The notes under the pieces were generated by a model, which was not told the DNA's origin, ran no database searches, and saw only the letters and a program-made list of their open reading frames with translations. A program made the position numbers and the translations under genes. From contig JBOEGD010000011.1 in NCBI GenBank assembly GCA_050633245.1, positions 96,001 through 160,000 on the forward strand: 64,000 nt of DNA. Reading direction: 5' to 3'. Positions 1 to 7,053 of this stretch are shown in pieces (position 1 is the stretch's first letter; the number at the start of each line of letters is the position of its first letter). This stretch comes from Calditrichia bacterium (lineage in GTDB: Bacteria > Calditrichota > Calditrichia > RBG-13-44-9 > J075).

Positions 1-418
1 TATTCAGAATTTCTTCCTCAACCGATTTTGCAATCATTTCTGAAATGGGCTTTGCAAGCTCCATGAGTTTTAGCCCTTCAGCATTCGAAGCAATAAAAAC
101 AGTTGGTCTTAAATCATCTTTGTTATGCAACCAATTTTTTGATGTCAGCAGGTCTATTTTATTTTGAGTAAGGCTATCTGTCCACCCGGCTTTTTTTTGA
201 AAAGATTTAACATCTATTTTATGATGCAGAGAAACGAGGAATAAATCTATACTATCTTTTCTTGAACGAAAATCGGGGAAATTGTCGCCGCGTGATATCA
301 AGCTATGTTCATACTTTGAACTAAATATTTCATTCAGACTCAGCTCATTAGTCGTGACTTCTTGATTGCAAGAAAATGAAATAATTAAGAGTAAAGGGAT
401 AATGTATCTCATTAGCAT
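1..418 (-). CDS. Putative lipoprotein, partial (runs off the window start)
   Basis: Manually translated frame is open from ATG 418 (or 412) to position 1: MLMRYIIPLLLIISFSCNQEV... It has a hydrophobic signal ending in a lipobox-like SFSC, and AAAGGA immediately upstream. Confidence 0.7.
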   Translation of the reverse strand, partial: MLMRYIIPLLLIISFSCNQEVTTNELSLNEIFSSKYEHSLISRGDNFPDFRSRKDSIDLFLVSLHHKIDVKSFQKKAGWTDSLTQNKIDLLTSKNWLHNKDDLRPTVFIASNAEGLKLMELAKPISEMIAKSVEEEILN

Positions 419-619: not shown

Positions 620-678
620 AAACTGGAGCAGTTTTCAAAACTGCTCCAGTTTTAGAATAGAAAAAGTCCTCACCACGT
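620..678. repeat. 59-bp direct repeat, copy 1 (contains the 35-bp REP-like palindrome at 619-653)
   Basis: AAACTGGAGCAGTTTTCAAAACTGCTCCAGTTTTAGAATAGAAAAAGTCCTCACCACGT, identical to 4122-4180. Confidence 0.95.
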
Positions 679-967
679 AGATTGTAATTTAGAATTTTTC
701 TTTCAGTCTGATTGAGCCCGTTACCAAAATTGAAACCACCTTCTCTAAAATGGAGTGACAATTGTATCTCCTTAGCTGGCTTTCCCAGCGTATGGCTTCC
801 GGATTAGAGGAAAAAAAAGAGCGGGGTAGATGACTTCTGAAAAGTTTTCACTATAATAAACTAAAGTCATTGGTAGATTCATATGCGTCAACCATTAGAA
901 GCTGGCAAAAAGAGTTTTTTAAATATCACTCCCGAATTAAGAACTTAACAATGCATAGGGCCCTATT

Positions 968-3900
968 ATGGATTGGTTCTATCTACAACCTTTTTCACTC
1001 CTGGCTCTAACCCAGTCAATTATAGCATTCTTTATCATGCTTTACCTTCTGAGCGTAAAAAAGAAGAGCAGTGCCACCTGGATGCTGGCACTGGCAATCG
1101 GCGCATTTGGTCTGTTCTGGGGAATAAAGTTTATCGATTACAGTGAATCCGGACTGTCGCCGCTGCCTATTTCTCTTAACCCTCTAGACGGCATGATGAT
1201 AGGAATTTGCTTCTTCGGATTTTTCCACTTTGCTTATGCTTTTCTGGGGAACCCATACCCTCGGGAATCGAAGATCGCTCTGGGGCTGACGCTATCTTTT
1301 ATTAGCATTCATATGTTTTTGGGCTTCCATCAGGCAATAACACAGCTGGATTCTTCAAACATCATGGAGTTTATCCTCACCATTGGCTATCTCCTGATGA
1401 TCTGTTGGGCAACAGCGGTTTTCCTGCGTAAAAGACACATTCTCCTGAACGCTTCAGGAGAAAGGCCGAATTGGCTGGTATCAACAGGTGAGGGAGAAGC
1501 TCAGGCATTAAGAGCCTTTGCGCTATTAACCTTTTGTATCATGCTGCTGACATTGCCGGGATTTTTAACCGGAGCAAATTCTTCACCTTTATGGGTTGCC
1601 TATGTTGAATATTTGGGTCAGGTGACCCTTCTAATTGCTTTTGTCGTCGTTTATATCAATCATGCCGCAGAACCGACTACGTTTTTATTAAAGCTGACCG
1701 GTCTGTCCTTAACCACTATTCTGGTTGTGCTGGGTCTTGCCTCTATGATGCTTTTTCCTAATGCCGAATTGGTTCTCTATAAGACAACCGGCTCTCCTCA
1801 TGCATACAACACACCGATTCCGGAGCTGAAGTCGATGCGCTTTACACCAAATGCACATGGAGGTTACTCTACGGTGTTTATACCGCGATCCTATGATCCG
1901 GATATTGGCGATAATCTTGAGATTGGTGTGGAAGGTGATTCCCTTGTTGAGCTGGATTTTAGCTTTCCGTTTTATGATACTTCCTGGGATGAAATCTATA
2001 TTGACTCAAATGGACTTATAACATTCGGCGGAGCATACCGCAGCACCAGCTTTCAGTCGTTTTTTGATGACGCGCTACCTAAAATTGCACCGTATTATCG
2101 AGCTTTGGTTCCTCTGAGTTCAGAGGGGAGCGGGGTCTTCTATAAAAGCGAAGTTGATCGAGCGACTGTCACCTGGTACCGCGTCCGTGAGCGCTATGAT
2201 GCTGTAGCCGACAATGAGAATACATTTCAGTTGGTGTTACATCGCAGTGGAGACATAGATTTCATTTATGATAGAATGGAAGCTTTACCGTTAAATGGCT
2301 ATCGCGGCCTGAGGCCGGGCGGATCAAACGTTAAGTTGGAAGAAAGCCAATTTTCCCTTTCCTCCTCAGAGTCGATTACCAATGCTATACTTCCTGAGGC
2401 AATGACTATCCGGTTTGAACCGGTCATGGAAGGGGAGTATCGTATATCGCAGCTTCCTGGTCAGTTTGACCCTGAACTGGGTGAAAACCTCCAGTTGCGA
2501 AACAGGGATGACAGTACTGTTTCGGTAGGATTTCCTTTTCACTTTTTCGGTATTTCTCATGATAAAATTATCATCAATGATAATGGTATTGTATCCTTTG
2601 GACGGTCACTATATCTACCGGATGGCTCATGGTTCGATCCATTTCTTCAGTCTTACTCTGAAATCCCCATTATTGCCCCCTTTTTTGCAGACCTGATTCC
2701 AGGGGGAACCGGCGGTGTGTATTTCAAACAATATAAAGAGAGTTTCACTGTTACATGGAAACGACTTCCGGTATTGGGGCGGTTGGCACGAAATACGATT
2801 CAACTTGTACTCCACAACAACGGAACGATTGACTTTACGTATAAAGCAATCGGCCCAGCTTCTTTCGCTGTAGACCTTTGGGGTCTTTACCCAGGCGATG
2901 GTCGATCGCCTATTGATGCCGTTCGCTATCTGACCGCTGTACATTCAAGTGCAGGAAAGTCTGGGGGCGGGCTATTTGAGGATTTCTACAGATCCTGGGG
3001 CCTCGCCTCGCTTCAATACAGGCATGAACGAATGCTGCCGTTTTTTTACGTTATTATTGGAAGCACTGTATTCATTCTTCTTGTTTTTCCCTTTCTGTTT
3101 CTAATCAGCCTTGTATGGCCATTAAATGCTTTACTAAAAGGTGTTCGTCTGGTTGATGCTGGAGATCTGAATACCAACGTTCCGGTTCGAATAAATGATG
3201 AAATCGGTGTTCTGGCCCAGAACTTTAACCGAATGACAACCTCCTTAAGAACTGCAGAAGAGCAGCTGACGGCTTATGCTGAAGGACTCGAAGGAAAAGT
3301 CGCTGAGCGAACTGCCGACCTTCAGGATGCGCTTAGAAGCTTAACCGAAACCCAGGACAGGTTAATCCACGCGGAAAAAATGGCCTCTCTCGGTCAGCTA
3401 ACAGCTGGAATCGCTCATGAGATCAAAAATCCACTTAACTTTGTTAATAATTTTGCCGGGCTTTCCGTTAAACTGGCAGATGAATTAATGGAAACACTGG
3501 CTGAAGGTGAATCTGTCGAAGATGTTGTTGAAGTCCTGAAAGAGAATGCCGGCAGGATCGAAGCTCACGGTAAACGAGCCGTTGATATTGTTCAGAAAAT
3601 GATGCAGCATGCTTCTGCCCAATCAGATCACCGTGAAATTACAGATATTAATCACCTTGTTTCAATGAGCGTAGATTTGGCATATCACGGAATGAAATCT
3701 CAATTTACAGGTTTTGAGGTTCAAATTCACCGCGAGTTGGGTACTGATGTCGGTGAATTGGAAGTAATGCCACAAGGGCTTAATCGCGTTGTTTTAAACC
3801 TGCTCTCAAATGCCTTCGATGCGGTTCATGAGCAAGCCGCCGCGACTGATGCGGATTATGTTGCAAGCGTAACGGTCTTTACCGCTCGCAAGAAAGACCG

Positions 3901-4123
3901 GGTTGAAATCCGGATTTCTGATAATGGGACGGGGATTCCATTAAAAAATCACGAGAAGATATTTGAGCCATTCTTTACCACAAAGCCCACTGGAACCGGA
4001 ATTGGCTTTGGCCTCTCGCTGTCGTATGACATCATTACTCAGGGGCATGGTGGAACGCTTACGATGGAAAGTGAAGAAGGAAAGAAGACAACCTTTTCAA
4101 TTACATTACCAGTTAGTGCATAA
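968..4123 (+). CDS. Membrane sensor histidine kinase: N-terminal multi-TM region, two extracytoplasmic NIDO-like repeats, TM, HAMP, HisKA, HATPase
   Basis: H-box AGIAHEIKNPLNF, N-box NLLSNAFDA, G1 DNGTGI, F/G2 FEPFFTTKPTGTGIGFGLS and HAMP DEIGVLAQNFNRM. The duplicated sensor domain reads F.FPF...IYI..NG.I.FG...IAP...TVTW...NT.QLVL. Confidence 0.92.
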   Translation: MDWFYLQPFSLLALTQSIIAFFIMLYLLSVKKKSSATWMLALAIGAFGLFWGIKFIDYSESGLSPLPISLNPLDGMMIGICFFGFFHFAYAFLGNPYPRESKIALGLTLSFISIHMFLGFHQAITQLDSSNIMEFILTIGYLLMICWATAVFLRKRHILLNASGERPNWLVSTGEGEAQALRAFALLTFCIMLLTLPGFLTGANSSPLWVAYVEYLGQVTLLIAFVVVYINHAAEPTTFLLKLTGLSLTTILVVLGLASMMLFPNAELVLYKTTGSPHAYNTPIPELKSMRFTPNAHGGYSTVFIPRSYDPDIGDNLEIGVEGDSLVELDFSFPFYDTSWDEIYIDSNGLITFGGAYRSTSFQSFFDDALPKIAPYYRALVPLSSEGSGVFYKSEVDRATVTWYRVRERYDAVADNENTFQLVLHRSGDIDFIYDRMEALPLNGYRGLRPGGSNVKLEESQFSLSSSESITNAILPEAMTIRFEPVMEGEYRISQLPGQFDPELGENLQLRNRDDSTVSVGFPFHFFGISHDKIIINDNGIVSFGRSLYLPDGSWFDPFLQSYSEIPIIAPFFADLIPGGTGGVYFKQYKESFTVTWKRLPVLGRLARNTIQLVLHNNGTIDFTYKAIGPASFAVDLWGLYPGDGRSPIDAVRYLTAVHSSAGKSGGGLFEDFYRSWGLASLQYRHERMLPFFYVIIGSTVFILLVFPFLFLISLVWPLNALLKGVRLVDAGDLNTNVPVRINDEIGVLAQNFNRMTTSLRTAEEQLTAYAEGLEGKVAERTADLQDALRSLTETQDRLIHAEKMASLGQLTAGIAHEIKNPLNFVNNFAGLSVKLADELMETLAEGESVEDVVEVLKENAGRIEAHGKRAVDIVQKMMQHASAQSDHREITDINHLVSMSVDLAYHGMKSQFTGFEVQIHRELGTDVGELEVMPQGLNRVVLNLLSNAFDAVHEQAAATDADYVASVTVFTARKKDRVEIRISDNGTGIPLKNHEKIFEPFFTTKPTGTGIGFGLSLSYDIITQGHGGTLTMESEEGKKTTFSITLPVSA

Positions 4124-4180
4124 ACTGGAGCAGTTTTCAAAACTGCTCCAGTTTTAGAATAGAAAAAGTCCTCACCACGT
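4122..4180. repeat. 59-bp direct repeat, copy 2
   Basis: Identical to 620-678 and begins inside the kinase stop codon. Confidence 0.95.
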
Positions 4181-4200
4181 TGATGTGATGAGGACTTTTT
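4163..4200. terminator. Bidirectional intrinsic-terminator-like hairpin
   Basis: AAAAAGTCCTCA ... TGAGGACTTTTT, a 12-bp inverted repeat with A/T tails. Confidence 0.7.
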
Positions 4201-4234
4201 TGTGCTCCCTTCATGGACGATTTTCGAACTTTTT
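4200..4234. repeat. att-like boundary element B, copy 1
   Basis: TTGTGCTCCC-TTCATGGACGATTTTCGAACTTTTT differs from 4961-4996 by one indel and one substitution. Confidence 0.85.
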
Positions 4235-4297
4235 AAATTCGGACTTATCGCTAATTGGCTGTGACAGCTACTTTTAATTTAGCTACCTTTATATTGC

Positions 4298-4313
4298 TAA
4301 TATAATTATATTA
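4298..4313 (+). promoter_or_regulatory. Palindromic operator over the -10 region of the TA operon (probably a leaderless transcript)
   Basis: Perfect 16-bp palindrome TAATATAATTATATTA. TATATT at 4307-4312 lies 6 nt before the ATG, and there is no SD. Confidence 0.6.
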
Positions 4314-4318
4314 TACTC

Positions 4319-4603
4319 ATGGAATATTTGCGTTTTGAATGGGATAAAAACAAAAGCCGGGTAAATAAGAACAAGCATGGCATCTCATTCGAAGAAGCTA
4401 AAACAGTCTTTTATGACGAATATGCCAAGCTGATTCCCGACCCGGATCATTCACTAGAAGAAGAAAGATTCATTTTACTTGGGCTAAGTAGTGTGTTGCG
4501 GATGCTGGTTGTTGTTCATATATACAAGGAAGAGGATGAATTAATTCGTATAATATCAGCGCGAAAGGCAACCAAAAAAGAAATAACTATTTATCAAAGG
4601 TAA
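4319..4603 (+). CDS. brnT: BrnT-family toxin (ribonuclease)
   Basis: FEWD..K...N..KHGISFEEA..VF.D, EERF..LG and IRIISARKAT motifs. Confidence 0.92.
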   Translation: MEYLRFEWDKNKSRVNKNKHGISFEEAKTVFYDEYAKLIPDPDHSLEEERFILLGLSSVLRMLVVVHIYKEEDELIRIISARKATKKEITIYQR

Positions 4604-4608
4604 GCTAT

Positions 4609-4833
4609 ATGAGAAAAGAATACGATTTTTCGCAGGCGGCCAAGAATCCTTATGCTAAAAAGCTCAAGAGGCAAATTACTATACGGATAGAGAACGAAAC
4701 GATCGAGTATTTCAAAAGATTAGCTGTAGAAACAGATATACCCTATCAAAAACTGATTAATCTGTTTTTGCGGGATTGCGCGCAGAATAACATTAAGCCA
4801 TCAATCTCCTGGAAAAAAGTGCAGCCCTCCTGA
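4609..4833 (+). CDS. brnA: BrnA/CopG-like antitoxin (RHH)
   Basis: MRKEYDFS...NPYA..LK.QITIR.....IEYFK......PYQ.LIN..L, directly downstream of brnT. Confidence 0.88.
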   Translation: MRKEYDFSQAAKNPYAKKLKRQITIRIENETIEYFKRLAVETDIPYQKLINLFLRDCAQNNIKPSISWKKVQPS

Positions 4834-4901
4834 ATCAAAGTTACCTCTTCCGGCCTTCGCTTTTAAGAGCTCTTGGAATACTTGATTAAAGAGTAAAGGT
4901 G

Positions 4902-4968
4902 ATTCTCCCTGCCAAGTATAAAAAGCTCCAAGTCGTTATATTTAAATGGCTTGGGGTAAATTGTGCTC
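4902..4968. repeat. Boundary element C (hairpin), copy 1
   Basis: 57/67 identical without gaps to 6918-6984, which abuts the tRNA 3' end. Confidence 0.9.
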
Positions 4969-4996
4969 CCCTTCATGGACGATCTTCGAACTTTTT
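4961..4996. repeat. att-like boundary element B, copy 2
   Basis: TTGTGCTCCCCTTCATGGACGATCTTCGAACTTTTT. It joins element C at the same GCTC where the tRNA joins C copy 2. Confidence 0.85.
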
Positions 4997-5281
4997 TGAG
5001 GGCGGTTTGAGCATAGCTGGTATATTTATTTCAACAAAAGCATTTGTCTTACTTTTGGAAACTTTCTTCATTTAGCATTTACAGGTGTCGCAAAGAACCG
5101 AAAGAAATATATGCCATTCGCGTATTTCGAAAGAGGACATTTGGAGACTACTCAGATCGTCAAAATTGTCAGCTCTGTATAGCATTCCAGATGGGCTTAT
5201 TATTAAACGTTGGCAATAGTTTTGAGCCAATTATGAGAAAAAACTGCTAATTCTGTATCTTTATTGTTATTATTGTAATAA

Positions 5282-5404
5282 CTCCCCACAATAAATGCTC
5301 TGAACATTAGTTGGAGATATGCCGCTTAAGAGTAGGTGTGCTTCAGCATCGAAACGCTTGAATGAGGGCCTCGGGCTTCTTCTTCAACTTAATAAGATGG
5401 GGAG
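5282..5404 (+). promoter_or_regulatory. Candidate structured 5' leader (four-way junction) sequestering the SD
   Basis: CTCCCCA (5282-5288) pairs with TGGGGAG (5398-5404). ATTAGTTGGAGA pairs with TCTTCAACTTAAT and encloses three hairpins. Confidence 0.4.
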
Positions 5405-5410
5405 AGACTT

Positions 5411-6832
5411 ATGAAACTGCGCTTGAAATTCGGTAAATCATTTTCAATGCTCAACGTTCTGGTTGTATTTACTTTGAGCATGCCTAATCTTATGCTCGCA
5501 CAAGTAGTATTCAAAGACGCTGCTTTGGACTCAAATAAACTGAGAACTTATATTAACAATCGCGGTAGCATTAGTAGTCCTGATCCCTGGGGGGTAAGGT
5601 GGCCTTATCGAACGACGAACGTTTTGGATTATGCTTTTGAAATGGGGCTACTTGTAGGTGGTGAAGTCTTCGATATAAATGGCGATACAGTGCAAATCGT
5701 TAACGATGGCTTAAAACCGGGTTCGGGAGGTGAATATGATCCTGTGTCCGGTGATCCCTGGGGCTGGCTACCAGAGAGTGGCTATGATAATCCAAACCAG
5801 GGATCTGTTGCATTGAGTGATGACTCCTTAAGCTGGCCTGCAAATTGGTCTGCCTGGCCCGGAGTCAATGGCCAGGGAACTCAATCTGCCGATCTTGAAT
5901 CAATCTGGTCAATAACAGATAGTTCGAATAAAGAATTTGAATATTATCCTTTCCCTGGTGATTCCTCCATAAGAGGTTTGGGGCTCAGGGTTGTATGTCG
6001 CGGTTTCCAATGGAGTGCTCCACAATACGAAGACATAACCATCTTCACGTATGATATAAAAAATATGAGCTCTAAGCCCCTAAACAAGCTTTGGGTTGGT
6101 TTGTATTCAGATCCAAGCATAGGAGGACCAAATGATTTTGCAGATGATTTGGCAAATTATGATTCAACCGAACAACTGATCTACAGCTGGGACTCCAATG
6201 GGATAGGTGATGGTGGAATCTCTCCGAGCGTCCTTGCATTTGCCATTTTGGAATCTCCTAACAATGTTGGTCTGACCTCTGTGAGGGCTGTTCCTTTCGG
6301 AGCTGTAAATAGACCAAGAGATGATGAAAGAACCTGGGAGTTGATGAAGCCGGATTCATTTAACGTGCTTTCACAGAGCTCTGATGTGGTTCTATTTTTC
6401 GGTTCCGGTTATTTTTCATTACAACCCGGTGAGATTCAGAAGTACGCTTTTGCTCTAATGGTAAGCGATATTTATCAAAATGCTGCCGAGGCTCGCAACG
6501 CATATCAAGGTATTCTGACAGGACTACATGATACTAGCAATTCAGCGATATCAAGGCATTTTACTCTACATTTCAGTTATCCGAATCCATTTAACCCAGC
6601 TACAACAATCAGTTTTAGTTTAAAAAAACAAGCTGATATACAGTTAGAGATATATAGTATTACTGGAGAGATTGTGCGCACACTAGTGAATACAAATAGT
6701 AGTGTCGGAAGACATCAAGTTATCTGGGACGGCATGAATGACGACGGGATGAAAGTCTCATCAGGTGTGTACTTATATCGTCTTAAGAGTGAAAACTTTT
6801 TTCAATCGAGAAAAATGGTTTTGTTACGATAA
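5411..6832 (+). CDS. Secreted protein with C-terminal FlgD-Ig/T9SS-type sorting domain
   Basis: Signal peptide ending LMLA-Q. C-terminus reads YPNPFNPATTISF...WDGMNDDG..VSSGVYLYRL...KMVLLR. Confidence 0.85.
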   Translation: MKLRLKFGKSFSMLNVLVVFTLSMPNLMLAQVVFKDAALDSNKLRTYINNRGSISSPDPWGVRWPYRTTNVLDYAFEMGLLVGGEVFDINGDTVQIVNDGLKPGSGGEYDPVSGDPWGWLPESGYDNPNQGSVALSDDSLSWPANWSAWPGVNGQGTQSADLESIWSITDSSNKEFEYYPFPGDSSIRGLGLRVVCRGFQWSAPQYEDITIFTYDIKNMSSKPLNKLWVGLYSDPSIGGPNDFADDLANYDSTEQLIYSWDSNGIGDGGISPSVLAFAILESPNNVGLTSVRAVPFGAVNRPRDDERTWELMKPDSFNVLSQSSDVVLFFGSGYFSLQPGEIQKYAFALMVSDIYQNAAEARNAYQGILTGLHDTSNSAISRHFTLHFSYPNPFNPATTISFSLKKQADIQLEIYSITGEIVRTLVNTNSSVGRHQVIWDGMNDDGMKVSSGVYLYRLKSENFFQSRKMVLLR

Positions 6833-6917
6833 CTTCAAACGACCATAAGGGTGCGTAAACCAATTATAGAGGCTGGATTCTTATTCTAATATTAGAGAGA
6901 AGAGTAGAACTCTTTAA

Positions 6918-6984
6918 ATTCTCCCTACCAAGAATAAAAAACCCCAAGCCATTATGTTTAAATGACTTGGGGTAAATGGAGCTC
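6918..6984. repeat. Boundary element C, copy 2; includes the tRNA terminator (minus strand)
   Basis: Minus strand reads CCCCAAGTCATT-loop-AATGGCTTGGGG-TTTTTT directly after the tRNA. Confidence 0.9.
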
Positions 6985-7053
6985 GGGAGGAGGGATTTGA
7001 ACCCCCGACCTAGTGGTTAACAGCCACCCGCTCTACCACTGAGCTACTCCCGA
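6982..7053 (-). tRNA. tRNA-Asn (GTT), CCA not directly encoded
   Basis: TCGGGAG acceptor stem, GCTC/GAGC D-arm, CTGTTAA anticodon loop, TTCAAAT T-loop and discriminator G, followed by CTCCA. Confidence 0.97.

What the first reader, a model, noticed from the sequence alone, without database searches (positions are those of the whole stretch)
620..7053. tRNA-Asn-anchored tandem array of integrase-less gene cassettes (integron-like accretion at a tRNA 3' end)
Seen, read in the tRNA sense: tRNA...GAGC|element C, secreted protein, element B...GAGC|element C, brnT/brnA, element B...GAGC|hairpin+REP, NIDO kinase, half-hairpin+REP, lipoprotein. C copies (4902-4968, 6918-6984) are 57/67 identical, and B copies (4200-4234, 4961-4996) differ at 2 positions. 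All three junctions share the GCTC/GAGC core that is also the last bases of the tRNA acceptor stem and discriminator. The modules are small (about 0.76, 2.0 and 3.5 kb), carry 1-2 genes each and encode no recombinase. Established: tRNA 3' ends are integration hotspots, and TA pairs stabilise integron arrays. Inference: these are non-autonomous cassettes serially inserted at tRNA-Asn by a recombinase acting in trans, a gene-capture system functionally like an integron but without attC sites.
Basis: partly seen in the sequence, partly recalled or inferred. Interest (0 to 1): 0.82.

Follow-up and report, generated by a model that had tools for sequence, protein, structure and literature searches.

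The report
Integrase-less gene modules behind tRNA-Asn
Two small gene packets with matching ends sit head to tail just behind an asparagine tRNA gene and carry no recombinase, which looks like old scars of a known way genomes collect foreign genes at tRNAs, not a working integron-like capture system.

Summary
The repeats are real. A (59/59 nt), B (35/36 nt, one substitution and one indel) and C (57/67 nt) lie where stated, at spacings of 3502, 762 and 2016 nt.

C2 is the intrinsic terminator of tRNA-Asn, and C1 is a decayed copy of it. The first half of A is a genome-wide REP-like palindrome with 49 full copies.

B and C occur nowhere else:
- not elsewhere in this genome;
- in 0 of 85 other genomes of the class;
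- only as chance hits in the genome and metagenome collections.

No recombinase lies in the modules, in the 12 kb to their left, or anywhere on the contig.

However, 4 of 34 tRNA genes in this genome (Asn, Pro, Phe, SeC) have small integrase-less modules downstream, bounded by direct copies of the tRNA 3' end and/or terminator. Several carry toxin-antitoxin pairs.

Best reading (0.5): relic, CIME-like tandem accretion of two related mini-elements at the tRNA-Asn 3' end. The kinase module is a separate REP-associated duplication. The scan has found this kind of structure before on other DNA. It is a new member of a known kind, with no evidence of activity or of integron-like capture.

The parts
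620..682 (.). Repeat A1: a REP-like palindrome (620-652) plus 26 nt that equal the left arm and spacer of the kinase terminator. It sits in the divergent intergenic region.
   Evidence: 59/59 identical to 4122-4180; REP family.
968..4123 (+). Sensor histidine kinase (1051 aa; NIDO, HAMP, HisKA, HATPase_c). The sensor part has no orthologue in the 36 other genomes of the order that were searched.
4122..4184 (.). Repeat A2: REP-like hairpin (4122-4154) directly after the kinase stop codon, plus a spacer and the left arm of the next hairpin.
   Evidence: (fold -21.7 kcal/mol, z -7.2).
4163..4200 (.). Bidirectional terminator hairpin 'hp' with an A-run and a T-run. It terminates the kinase gene and may be the ancestral tRNA-Asn terminator.
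   Evidence: -20.9 kcal/mol on +, -23.7 on -; z -6.2 and -8.4; a relative (L015) has its tRNA end ...GGAGC followed by ACAAAAAAG and a hairpin, like the B1|hp junction here.
4198..4234 (.). Repeat B1: distal end of the brnTA module. No predicted structure and no similarity to the tRNA.
   Evidence: z -0.18; a contig from a related strain bridges 3880-4232.
4319..4603 (+). brnT, the toxin of a type II toxin-antitoxin pair (GC 0.36 against 0.453 for the genome).
   Evidence: PF04365, 97.1 bits.
4609..4833 (+). brnA/CopG-type antitoxin.
   Evidence: PF12441 33.4 bits; PF14384 25.1 bits, just under its cut-off of 26.1.
4876..4968 (-). Repeat C1: a decayed copy of the tRNA-Asn terminator region. 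Three of the 12 stem pairs are broken.
   Evidence: (-9.1 kcal/mol, z 0.01, 102 of 200 shuffles fold as well).
4960..4996 (.). Repeat B2: distal end of the T9SS-protein module. It overlaps C1 by 4-8 nt (TTGTGCTC).
5411..6832 (+). Secreted protein with a T9SS C-terminal sorting domain (473 aa). It is a short, divergent member of a large paralogue family of this order.
   Evidence: (best relatives 37-46% identical).
6887..6984 (-). Repeat C2: the working intrinsic terminator of tRNA-Asn (13-bp stem 6941-6973, then TTTTTTATT on the - strand).
   Evidence: -23.7 kcal/mol, z -4.0; (all 9 relatives have their own hairpin at this position).
6982..7053 (-). tRNA-Asn(GTT), the only gene with this sequence in the assembly. 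A promoter-like site lies at 7111-7083.

Best explanation
The stretch between the kinase terminator and tRNA-Asn holds two related, non-autonomous mini-elements, each built as [C, cargo, B] when read in the tRNA sense. They were added one after the other at the extreme 3' end of tRNA-Asn. The brnTA module came first and the T9SS-protein module second, next to the tRNA.

Each incoming element brought its own copy of the terminator region (C). The resident copy was pushed away from the tRNA and is now decaying (C1). The joints lie in a short shared core (G-N-GCTC).

Shown: the shared ends, the head-to-tail order, the position at the tRNA end, the absence of any recombinase, and the decay of C1.

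Inferred: that a tyrosine-type integrase acting in trans, now absent from the genome, made the joints. In other words, these are CIME-like relics of tandem accretion, no longer demonstrably mobile.

The kinase module is not part of the same series. It is bounded by a perfect 59-nt duplication of its own REP-plus-terminator flank, which is a younger and separate event.
For: (1) Both modules share both ends: C 57/67 and B 34/36 positions. The B and C repeats overlap by 4-8 nt at the single internal joint.
(2) C2 is the tRNA's terminator and C1 has lost the stem. This is what is expected of a displaced attR-side copy.
(3) In 9 of 9 relatives the tRNA-Asn end ...GGAGC is followed at once by a lineage-specific terminator hairpin. 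B1 is followed by just such a hairpin, which fits an ancestral tRNA|hp arrangement.
(4) The side 5' of the tRNA (CBM48 protein, PduO-type adenosyltransferase, SerC) is syntenic: CBM48 in 8 of 11 relatives' loci and the full set in 6. None of the 11 has the kinase sensor, brnTA or the left-flank genes 3' of the tRNA. The tRNA is therefore a synteny break.
(5) The pattern recurs. In 4 of 34 tRNA genes of this genome, direct copies of the tRNA 3' end/terminator lie downstream and none upstream. They bound modules of 0.78-3.5 kb that carry DUF433/DUF5615, DUF433/PIN_3/HicB-like, TIR_2 and T9SS-tail genes and no integrase.
(6) In another genus (G007) the same tRNA-Pro(CGG) segment, starting at the same base, bounds a 45.5-kb island. 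A 353-aa tyrosine recombinase gene lies about 0.9 kb from the distal copy.
(7) Accretion of integrase-less CIMEs and stacked insertions at tRNAs are established (passages of PMC5704250; passages of bioRxiv 10.1101/2020.12.28.424599).
Against: - There is no autonomous relative, no integrase and no further copy of B or C in the genome, in 85 other genomes of the class, or in the genome and metagenome collections.
- The direct repeat at tRNA-Asn covers only the last 4 nt of the tRNA plus the terminator. At the Pro, Phe and SeC loci it includes 25-44 nt of the tRNA, so the recombination need not be of the same kind.
- B has no structure and no inverted-repeat core that would mark a recombinase site.
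- Module ends at the four tRNA loci share no motif above chance.
- With only two modules, a one-off illegitimate join explains the data equally well.
- No empty site or presence/absence polymorphism could be shown, because no same-genus genome is held.
- G000 has no close homologue of the G007 island integrase; the best hits are Xer-like at 25-27%.
Confidence: 0.5

Rival explanations
1. Slot stacking without a site-specific recombinase. B and C are native flanks of one variable slot next to tRNA-Asn. DNA from a sister strain with a different gene in the slot was added in tandem. One end joined by homologous recombination in B or C, and the other by an illegitimate join at the GCTC microhomology.
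For: There is only one novel joint (C1|B2), with a 4-8-nt overlap typical of microhomology joins. B and C are unique to this locus. No recombinase was found anywhere near. The genome has other genes flanked by duplicated terminators away from tRNAs: A1/A2 here, and C10:52059/54755.
Against: It does not explain why 4 of 34 tRNA genes, always on the 3' side, show the same kind of module. Nor does it explain why the joint falls exactly at the tRNA's last bases. No sister strain with a single-cargo slot has been seen.
Confidence: 0.25
2. Purely local history. Segmental duplications of terminator-containing intergenic DNA (by slippage, unequal crossing-over or gene conversion) occurred in a variable chromosomal region. 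Nothing was ever mobile.
For: Local direct repeats of 28-300 nt at 300-8000 nt spacing outnumber inverted ones 55 to 11 in this genome. Repeat A is a perfect local duplication. A related strain keeps the kinase-A2-B1 junction.
Against: The cargo between the repeats is unrelated (brnTA versus a T9SS protein). A duplication model therefore needs a later replacement of one copy's content. brnT has GC 0.36 against 0.453 for the genome, which suggests foreign origin. brnTA relatives at about 70% nucleotide identity sit at other loci in 4 of 40 other genomes and on 2 small plasmids.
Confidence: 0.13
3. One reading: an active, integron-like capture platform in which a trans-acting recombinase serially inserts minimal cassettes at the GAGC end of tRNA-Asn.
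For: The modules share ends and their cargo genes face the same way. Small modules recur at four tRNAs. The genome has six tyrosine-recombinase genes elsewhere, three of them only about 200 aa.
Against: - There are no further B/C copies or B|C junctions anywhere.
- C1 has decayed and C1/C2 are only 85% alike.
- There is no attC-like structure in B.
- None of the recombinases is linked to a tRNA or to B/C.
- The modules have their own upstream regions (85 and 414 nt).
Confidence: 0.06
4. Assembly artefact: strain variants of one slot were threaded in series by the metagenome assembler.
For: The genome is a 59-contig draft. Only one of the three joints (hp|B1) is confirmed by independent data.
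Against: C1 and C2 differ at 10 of 67 positions and B1 and B2 differ too, so the copies are not collapsed repeats. A simple bubble gives no path from C back to B. The Pro and Phe loci show the same architecture with diverged copies.
Confidence: 0.04

Closest known systems
CIMEs (cis-mobilizable elements) and tandem accretion at att sites in tRNA 3' ends, as for ICESt1/ICESt3-related elements of Streptococcus (defined in PMC5704250; passages read)
   Same: The elements lack integration and transfer genes but are still bounded by direct repeats derived from the target. They are stacked head to tail at a tRNA gene, and a toxin-antitoxin pair is among the cargo.
   Different: No related autonomous element or integrase is known. 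The modules are very small (0.76 and 2.0 kb). The repeat is the tRNA's terminator plus only 4 nt of the tRNA, not the tRNA 3' half. Mobilisation is untested.
Island arrays built by successive integrations at tRNA genes, with partial tRNAs and degenerate remnants (tycheposons of Prochlorococcus; bioRxiv 10.1101/2020.12.28.424599, passages read)
   Same: New insertions at one tRNA push older ones further in. Remnants without integrase persist. Several tRNA genes of one genome act as hotspots (here 4 of 34).
   Different: No tycheposon-type recombinase or replication module is present. The host phylum (Calditrichia) and the cargo are different.
Integron cassette arrays
   Same: Small modules of one or two genes lie in series in the same orientation with a toxin-antitoxin pair among them, and no recombinase lies inside the cassettes.
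   Different: There is no intI, attI or Pc, and no attC-like folded site. The cargo genes have their own upstream regions. The anchor is a tRNA terminator.
REP elements and REP-associated Y1 transposases (RAYTs); this applies to the hairpin half of repeat A only
   Same: A palindrome of about 27-33 nt is dispersed in 49 full copies, mostly just after stop codons. One Y1_Tnp gene is present in the genome.
   Different: The Y1_Tnp gene is not flanked by the palindrome in the copies listed. Many copies carry tandem arrays of half-units at a period of about 20-22 nt.

Membership tests
CIME / tandem accretion at a tRNA att site | The element is bounded by direct repeats (attL/attR) derived from the integration target. 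| tested here: met
   C1/C2 are 57/67 identical, and 93-98 nt long with one gap. C2 is the tRNA-Asn terminator. The repeat includes only 4 nt of the tRNA itself.
CIME / tandem accretion at a tRNA att site | The element has no integrase, excisionase or transfer genes. | tested here: met
   Pfam on all ORFs of 40 aa or more in the modules and spacers found no recombinase domain. None of the 6 PF00589 matches is on this contig.
CIME / tandem accretion at a tRNA att site | A related autonomous element (ICE, IME or integrase-bearing island) uses the same att sequence. | tested here: not met
   B and C were not found elsewhere in the genome, in 85 other genomes of the class, or beyond chance hits in the genome and metagenome contigs. 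For the tRNA-Pro locus of the same genome the feature is met in genus g8.
CIME / tandem accretion at a tRNA att site | The element is precisely absent (empty site) in close relatives, or excision can be shown. | tested here: inconclusive
   No same-genus genome is held. The one run that holds a related strain is low-depth contigs and shows no joint at the repeats.
Integron | An intI tyrosine recombinase lies with attI and Pc at the head of the array. | tested here: not met
   No Phage_integrase match on contig C11. The head of the array is a tRNA and its terminator.
Integron | An attC site (imperfect palindrome that folds as a single strand) ends each cassette. | tested here: not met
   B does not fold better than shuffles (z -0.18 and +0.85). 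The C hairpin is an ordinary terminator and is lost in C1. No attC covariance model was available, so only folding was tested.
REP/RAYT system (hairpin of repeat A) | A short palindrome is dispersed in many intergenic copies. | tested here: met
   49 full copies on 22 contigs and 169 half-units.
REP/RAYT system (hairpin of repeat A) | A Y1 transposase (RAYT) gene is flanked by the REPs. | tested here: inconclusive
   There is one Y1_Tnp match at C20:295625-295993 (30 bits). The full REP copies listed on C20 lie between 107,918 and 276,506, none within 19 kb of the gene.
BrnT/BrnA type II toxin-antitoxin | A BrnT-fold toxin gene is followed by a small CopG/BrnA antitoxin gene in one operon. | tested here: met
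   PF04365 97.1 bits (cut-off 34.5); PF12441 33.4 bits (cut-off 28); PF14384 25.1 bits (cut-off 26.1). The two genes are 5 nt apart.

The most novel reading that the evidence does not exclude
This Calditrichia lineage uses tRNA 3' ends as general landing pads for minimal, recombinase-free cassettes of 0.8-3.5 kb carrying toxin-antitoxin, TIR, secreted-protein and regulator genes. A trans-acting enzyme recognises little more than the tRNA end plus its terminator hairpin and moves them. The tRNA-Asn array, whose joints sit at the last four bases of the tRNA, would be the most stripped-down example: a distributed, tRNA-anchored gene-capture system.
Probability: 0.07. Interest if true: 0.7.

Novelty: new member of a known kind. 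Interest (0 to 1): 0.3.

Why it matters
If the relic reading holds, this is one more example, in a little-studied phylum, of how tRNA genes collect accessory genes such as toxin-antitoxin pairs, defence genes and secreted proteins in small packets that outlive their integrases. The useful points are these:
- Such packets can be as small as 0.76 kb.
- The duplicated 'att' can be the tRNA's terminator and not the tRNA body, so searches that look only for partial tRNA copies would miss it.
- Four of the 34 tRNA genes found in this one draft genome show the pattern.

It would matter much more only if the packets were shown to move, and nothing here shows that.

Tried and rejected
- B as a decayed tRNA 3' fragment: rejected. 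Local alignment of B1 and B2 with their flanks to tRNA-Asn scores no better than shuffles (394 of 500 and 119 of 500 shuffles reach the observed score). Rfam found nothing at B at E up to 1.
- B or the spacers as coding remnants of a recombinase: six small ORFs gave 0 Pfam families at E up to 1.
- A shared end motif across the module ends of the four tRNA loci: 34 shared 9-mers among 16 ends, scattered with no consistent position. I take this as chance level, including the TGGACGATC match I first noticed.
- Partial B look-alikes at C22:54791 and C18:39149: no extended similarity.
- The 15-nt match between the end of B1 and the start of C2 (family D18): I judge it chance, since 30 short families were found in 9 kb.
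- brnTA flanks in relatives (G014, G037, G038, G039): similarity stops at the operon, with no tRNA and no B or C.
- Plasmid and phage collections: only brnTA at 65-72% identity on two small uncultured plasmids, and no phage match.
- Pattern scans: the B core hit 0 genome contigs and 5 metagenome contigs, and the C core hit 1 genome contig. None has similarity beyond 20-22 nt.
- Sequencing runs: one DNA run (X1, a coral metagenome held as contigs) holds 0.05 of the sampled words, and no RNA holder is listed. When laid, 26 of 30 bins have some depth. The four bins without cover (4501-4800 and 5401-6300) cannot be read as absence. The only joint reported lies inside the tRNA and comes from contigs, so nothing can be said about circles or deletions.
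- Small GIY-YIG genes as a possible trans-acting nuclease (an idea prompted by G001): the two small copies in G000 are not near any tRNA.
- A homologue of the G007 island integrase in G000: none closer than 25-27% identity.


Full report
WHAT IS THERE

The window is G000:C11:96001-160000 of a 6.35-Mb, 59-contig draft genome. On the + strand the layout is as follows:
- an ORF with a lipoprotein-like N-terminus, 2-418 (-), 339 aa in full, with no family match;
- repeat A1, 620-682;
- a 1051-aa sensor histidine kinase with NIDO, HAMP, HisKA and HATPase domains, 968-4123;
- repeat A2, 4122-4184, running into a strong hairpin 'hp' at 4163-4200;
- repeat B1, 4198-4234;
- brnT 4319-4603 and brnA 4609-4833;
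- repeat C1, 4902-4968;
- repeat B2, 4960-4996;
- a 473-aa protein with a T9SS sorting tail, 5411-6832;
- repeat C2, 6918-6984;
- tRNA-Asn(GTT), 6981/2-7053 on the - strand.

The repeat finder reports A at 98% over 63 nt, C at 85% over 67 nt (57/67) and B at 96% over 28 nt, with spacings of 3502, 2016 and 762 nt. Blast against the whole genome shows A identical over 59 nt and gives E values of 5e-9 for C and 7e-7 for B. A gapped alignment extends B to 35/36 nt (one substitution, one 1-nt indel) and C to about 93-98 nt.

GCTC is present at all three joints, but the three occurrences are linked. At 4960-4968 the B and C repeats overlap, and the other two occurrences are the partners of that stretch. 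Only G-N-GCTC is common to all three.

WHAT THE REPEATS ARE

On the tRNA strand C2 folds into a 13-bp hairpin followed by a U-run (-23.7 kcal/mol, z -4.0, 0 of 200 shuffles as good). In all 9 relatives whose tRNA-Asn I read, the gene ends ...GGAGC and is followed at once by a different, lineage-specific hairpin. C2 is therefore the intrinsic terminator of tRNA-Asn.

C1 has lost that structure (-9.1 kcal/mol, z 0.01, 102 of 200 shuffles as good). Three of its 12 stem pairs are broken (and read).

The first 27-33 nt of A is a palindrome present in 49 full copies on 22 contigs, plus 169 half-units. It mostly sits just behind stop codons and often has tandem half-units beside it. The 59-nt form of A occurs only at these two places.

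hp is a bidirectional terminator (z -6.2 and -8.4). B has no predicted structure (z -0.18 and +0.85) and is no more like tRNA-Asn than shuffled sequence is.

- B and C occur only here in the genome.
- A 26-nt B pattern with up to 3 mismatches matched 1 of 86 genomes of the class, and that one was G000 itself.
- Exact B and C cores matched 0 and 1 contigs of the species-level genome collection and 5 metagenome contigs. None shows similarity beyond 20-22 nt.
- Of 6 Phage_integrase matches in the genome, none is on contig C11.
- Ten ORFs in the 12 kb to the left, all module ORFs and six small spacer ORFs show no recombinase or transposase domain.
- No same-genus genome is held.
- One coral-metagenome run holds low-depth contigs of a related strain. 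A 356-nt contig, differing at 24 letters plus 7 gaps, bridges 3880-4232, i.e. kinase end, A2, hp and B1. In that strain B1 carries the extra C that B2 has.

CONTEXT IN RELATIVES

The side 5' of the tRNA is conserved in the family. Of 11 loci from other genera, 8 have the CBM48 protein beside tRNA-Asn and 6 also have the PduO-type adenosyltransferase and SerC.

The 3' side is different in every genus. None has the kinase sensor, brnTA or the lipoprotein-like gene there.

The kinase's sensor half has no orthologue in the 36 other genomes of the order; only NIDO-domain matches at about 30-39% identity appear. The N-terminal part of the T9SS protein belongs to a large paralogue family found in 37 of 37 genomes, with best identity 37-46%. 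brnTA relatives at about 70% nucleotide identity lie at other, tRNA-free loci in 4 genomes and on 2 small plasmids. brnT has GC 0.36 against 0.453 for the genome.

AN UNEXPECTED PIECE OF SUPPORT

A self-comparison of the genome found 55 direct and 11 inverted local repeats (28-300 nt long, 300-8000 nt apart). Two clusters turned out to be tRNA 3' halves with their terminators. Scanning all 34 tRNA genes gave downstream, same-strand copies at 4 of them and upstream copies at none.

- tRNA-Asn: repeat C.
- tRNA-Pro(CGG): two copies holding 27 and 44 nt of the tRNA plus the terminator. They bound a 776-nt module (DUF433 + DUF5615 toxin-antitoxin pair) and a 2321-nt module (TIR_2 protein with a membrane tail, and others).
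- tRNA-Phe: modules of about 3533 nt (T9SS-tail protein, DUF433, PIN_3, HicB-like) and about 2296 nt (NAD_binding_10, cNMP-binding).
- tRNA-SeC: a 28-nt copy 3376 nt away, with cNMP-binding, metallo-beta-lactamase-fold and luciferase-domain genes between.

None of these modules holds an integrase.

In genus g8 (G007) the same tRNA-Pro segment, beginning at the same base, bounds a 45.5-kb island. A 353-aa tyrosine recombinase gene lies about 0.9 kb from the distal copy. G000 has no close homologue of that enzyme (25-27% identity to its Xer-like genes).

Small integrase-less modules at tRNA 3' ends are thus a recurrent feature of this genome. For tRNA-Pro at least, they sit at a site used by an integrase-bearing island in a relative.

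HOW IT MOST LIKELY AROSE

Read in the tRNA sense, both inner modules have the form C, cargo, B. The simplest history starts from tRNA-Asn followed directly by hp, convergent with the kinase gene.

1. A brnTA element with an attP-like joint B|C entered at the tRNA end, giving tRNA-C1-brnTA-B1-hp.
2. A related element carrying the T9SS gene then entered at the same place, giving tRNA-C2-cargo-B2-C1...

C1, no longer behind a transcribed gene, decayed. C2 and hp stayed under selection as terminators.

This is the accretion scheme described for CIMEs (PMC5704250, passages) and for stacked elements and remnants at tRNAs in Prochlorococcus (bioRxiv 10.1101/2020.12.28.424599, passages).

The shared ends, the order, the position, the lack of a recombinase and the decay of C1 are shown. 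The recombinase and the order of events are inferred. I give this reading 0.5.

RIVALS

- Slot stacking (0.25). A single illegitimate join at the GCTC microhomology, during uptake of DNA from a sister strain with different cargo between the same native flanks, gives the same picture without any dedicated enzyme.
- Purely local duplication (0.13). This needs a later swap of cargo.
- An active integron-like platform (0.06). It lacks every predicted correlate.
- Assembly artefact (0.04). This is unlikely given the diverged copies, but only the hp|B1 joint has independent support.

THE KINASE MODULE

This module is different. Its repeat A is perfect (59/59). It begins exactly at the REP palindrome and ends in the loop of hp, so the distal copy is 'REP plus half a hairpin'. 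It has no B or C.

A similar case lies at C10:52059/54755, where a 46-nt bidirectional terminator is duplicated on either side of one 829-aa ORF.

I cannot explain these terminator duplications. They may reflect recombination at hairpins or REPs.

COMPARISON AND VERDICT

The structure works like tandem CIME accretion. It meets two defining features (target-derived direct repeats, no mobility genes). It fails one, since no related autonomous element was found, and one could not be tested (empty site or excision).

It is not an integron: there is no intI, attI or Pc and no attC-like fold.

The scan has reported integrase-less stacks at tRNA genes in several other genomes, so the kind is familiar.

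Two things are particular here. The repeat is the tRNA's terminator with only four bases of the tRNA, and four tRNA loci in one Calditrichia genome carry modules as small as 0.76 kb. I rate it a new member of a known kind, interest 0.3.

LIMITS

- No raw reads and no same-genus genome could be examined, so activity and presence/absence polymorphism remain open.
- The pattern scans were exact or allowed at most 3 mismatches, so diverged relatives of B and C could be missed.
- Paper supplements were not consulted.

Noticed in passing
window 620-652 and 4122-4154; genome-wide, e.g. C24:156790-156918 and C20:143688-143779: A REP-like palindrome (core about 27 nt) occurs in 49 full copies on 22 contigs, with 169 half-units. 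It usually lies just after a stop codon. It is often preceded or followed by tandem arrays of half-units at a period of about 20-22 nt. One Y1_Tnp gene lies at C20:295625-295993 and is not flanked by the listed copies.
   Followed up: partly
G000:C11:217631-220846 (L034 3631-6846), outside the window: tRNA-Pro(CGG) is followed by two direct copies of its 3' part plus terminator. They bound a 776-nt DUF433/DUF5615 toxin-antitoxin module and a 2321-nt module with a TIR_2 protein. No integrase is present. In G007 the same segment bounds a 45.5-kb island that has a tyrosine recombinase.
   Followed up: partly
G000:C22:24767-30710 (L035 4767-10710): tRNA-Phe has two integrase-less modules behind it: T9SS-tail protein + DUF433 + PIN_3 + HicB-like, and NAD_binding_10 + cNMP-binding. 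The partial tRNA-Phe copies are split: an anticodon-arm-to-T-loop piece and a T-loop-to-3'-end piece are separated by a hairpin-rich insert of about 90 nt. This occurs at three places.
   Followed up: partly
G000:C31:39229-42705 (L036 3229-6705): tRNA-SeC has a 28-nt direct copy of its 3' end 3376 nt downstream. The copy and the tRNA enclose cNMP-binding, metallo-beta-lactamase-fold and luciferase-domain genes.
   Followed up: partly
L019 2300-3270 (G001, another genus): Behind tRNA-Asn lie tandem units, each made of a small ORF, a partial tRNA-Asn copy with an insert, and the terminator. A withheld N stretch interrupts them. By eye the ORF resembles the small GIY-YIG nuclease family; I did not run a family search on it.
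   Followed up: partly
G000:C10:52059-54800: A 46-nt bidirectional terminator is duplicated (98% identity) on either side of a single 829-aa ORF. This is the same pattern as A1-kinase-A2.
   Followed up: no
window 6982-7053: The acceptor stem of this tRNA-Asn reads TCGGGAG/CTCCCGA. At least one relative reads TCCGGAG/CTCCGGA in full, and all 9 relatives have ...CTCCGGAGC at the 3' end. This is a compensatory change at pair 3:70. Whether it relates to past recombination at the 3' end is unknown.
   Followed up: no
G000:C11:51426-61895 versus L013 (G003): Genes about 5 kb downstream of tRNA-Asn in G003 have their best matches 41-51 kb from tRNA-Asn in G000 (54-64% identity). The whole 41 kb left of the tRNA may therefore be a lineage-specific variable region. 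No mobile-element genes were seen in the 12 kb examined. The ORF next to repeat A1 has GC 0.33.
   Followed up: partly
G000:C17:27833, C2:40529, C20:169428: Three tyrosine-recombinase genes have open frames of only about 200 aa. One lies beside a 33-nt direct repeat pair (C2:33098/39647). Their role is unknown.
   Followed up: no
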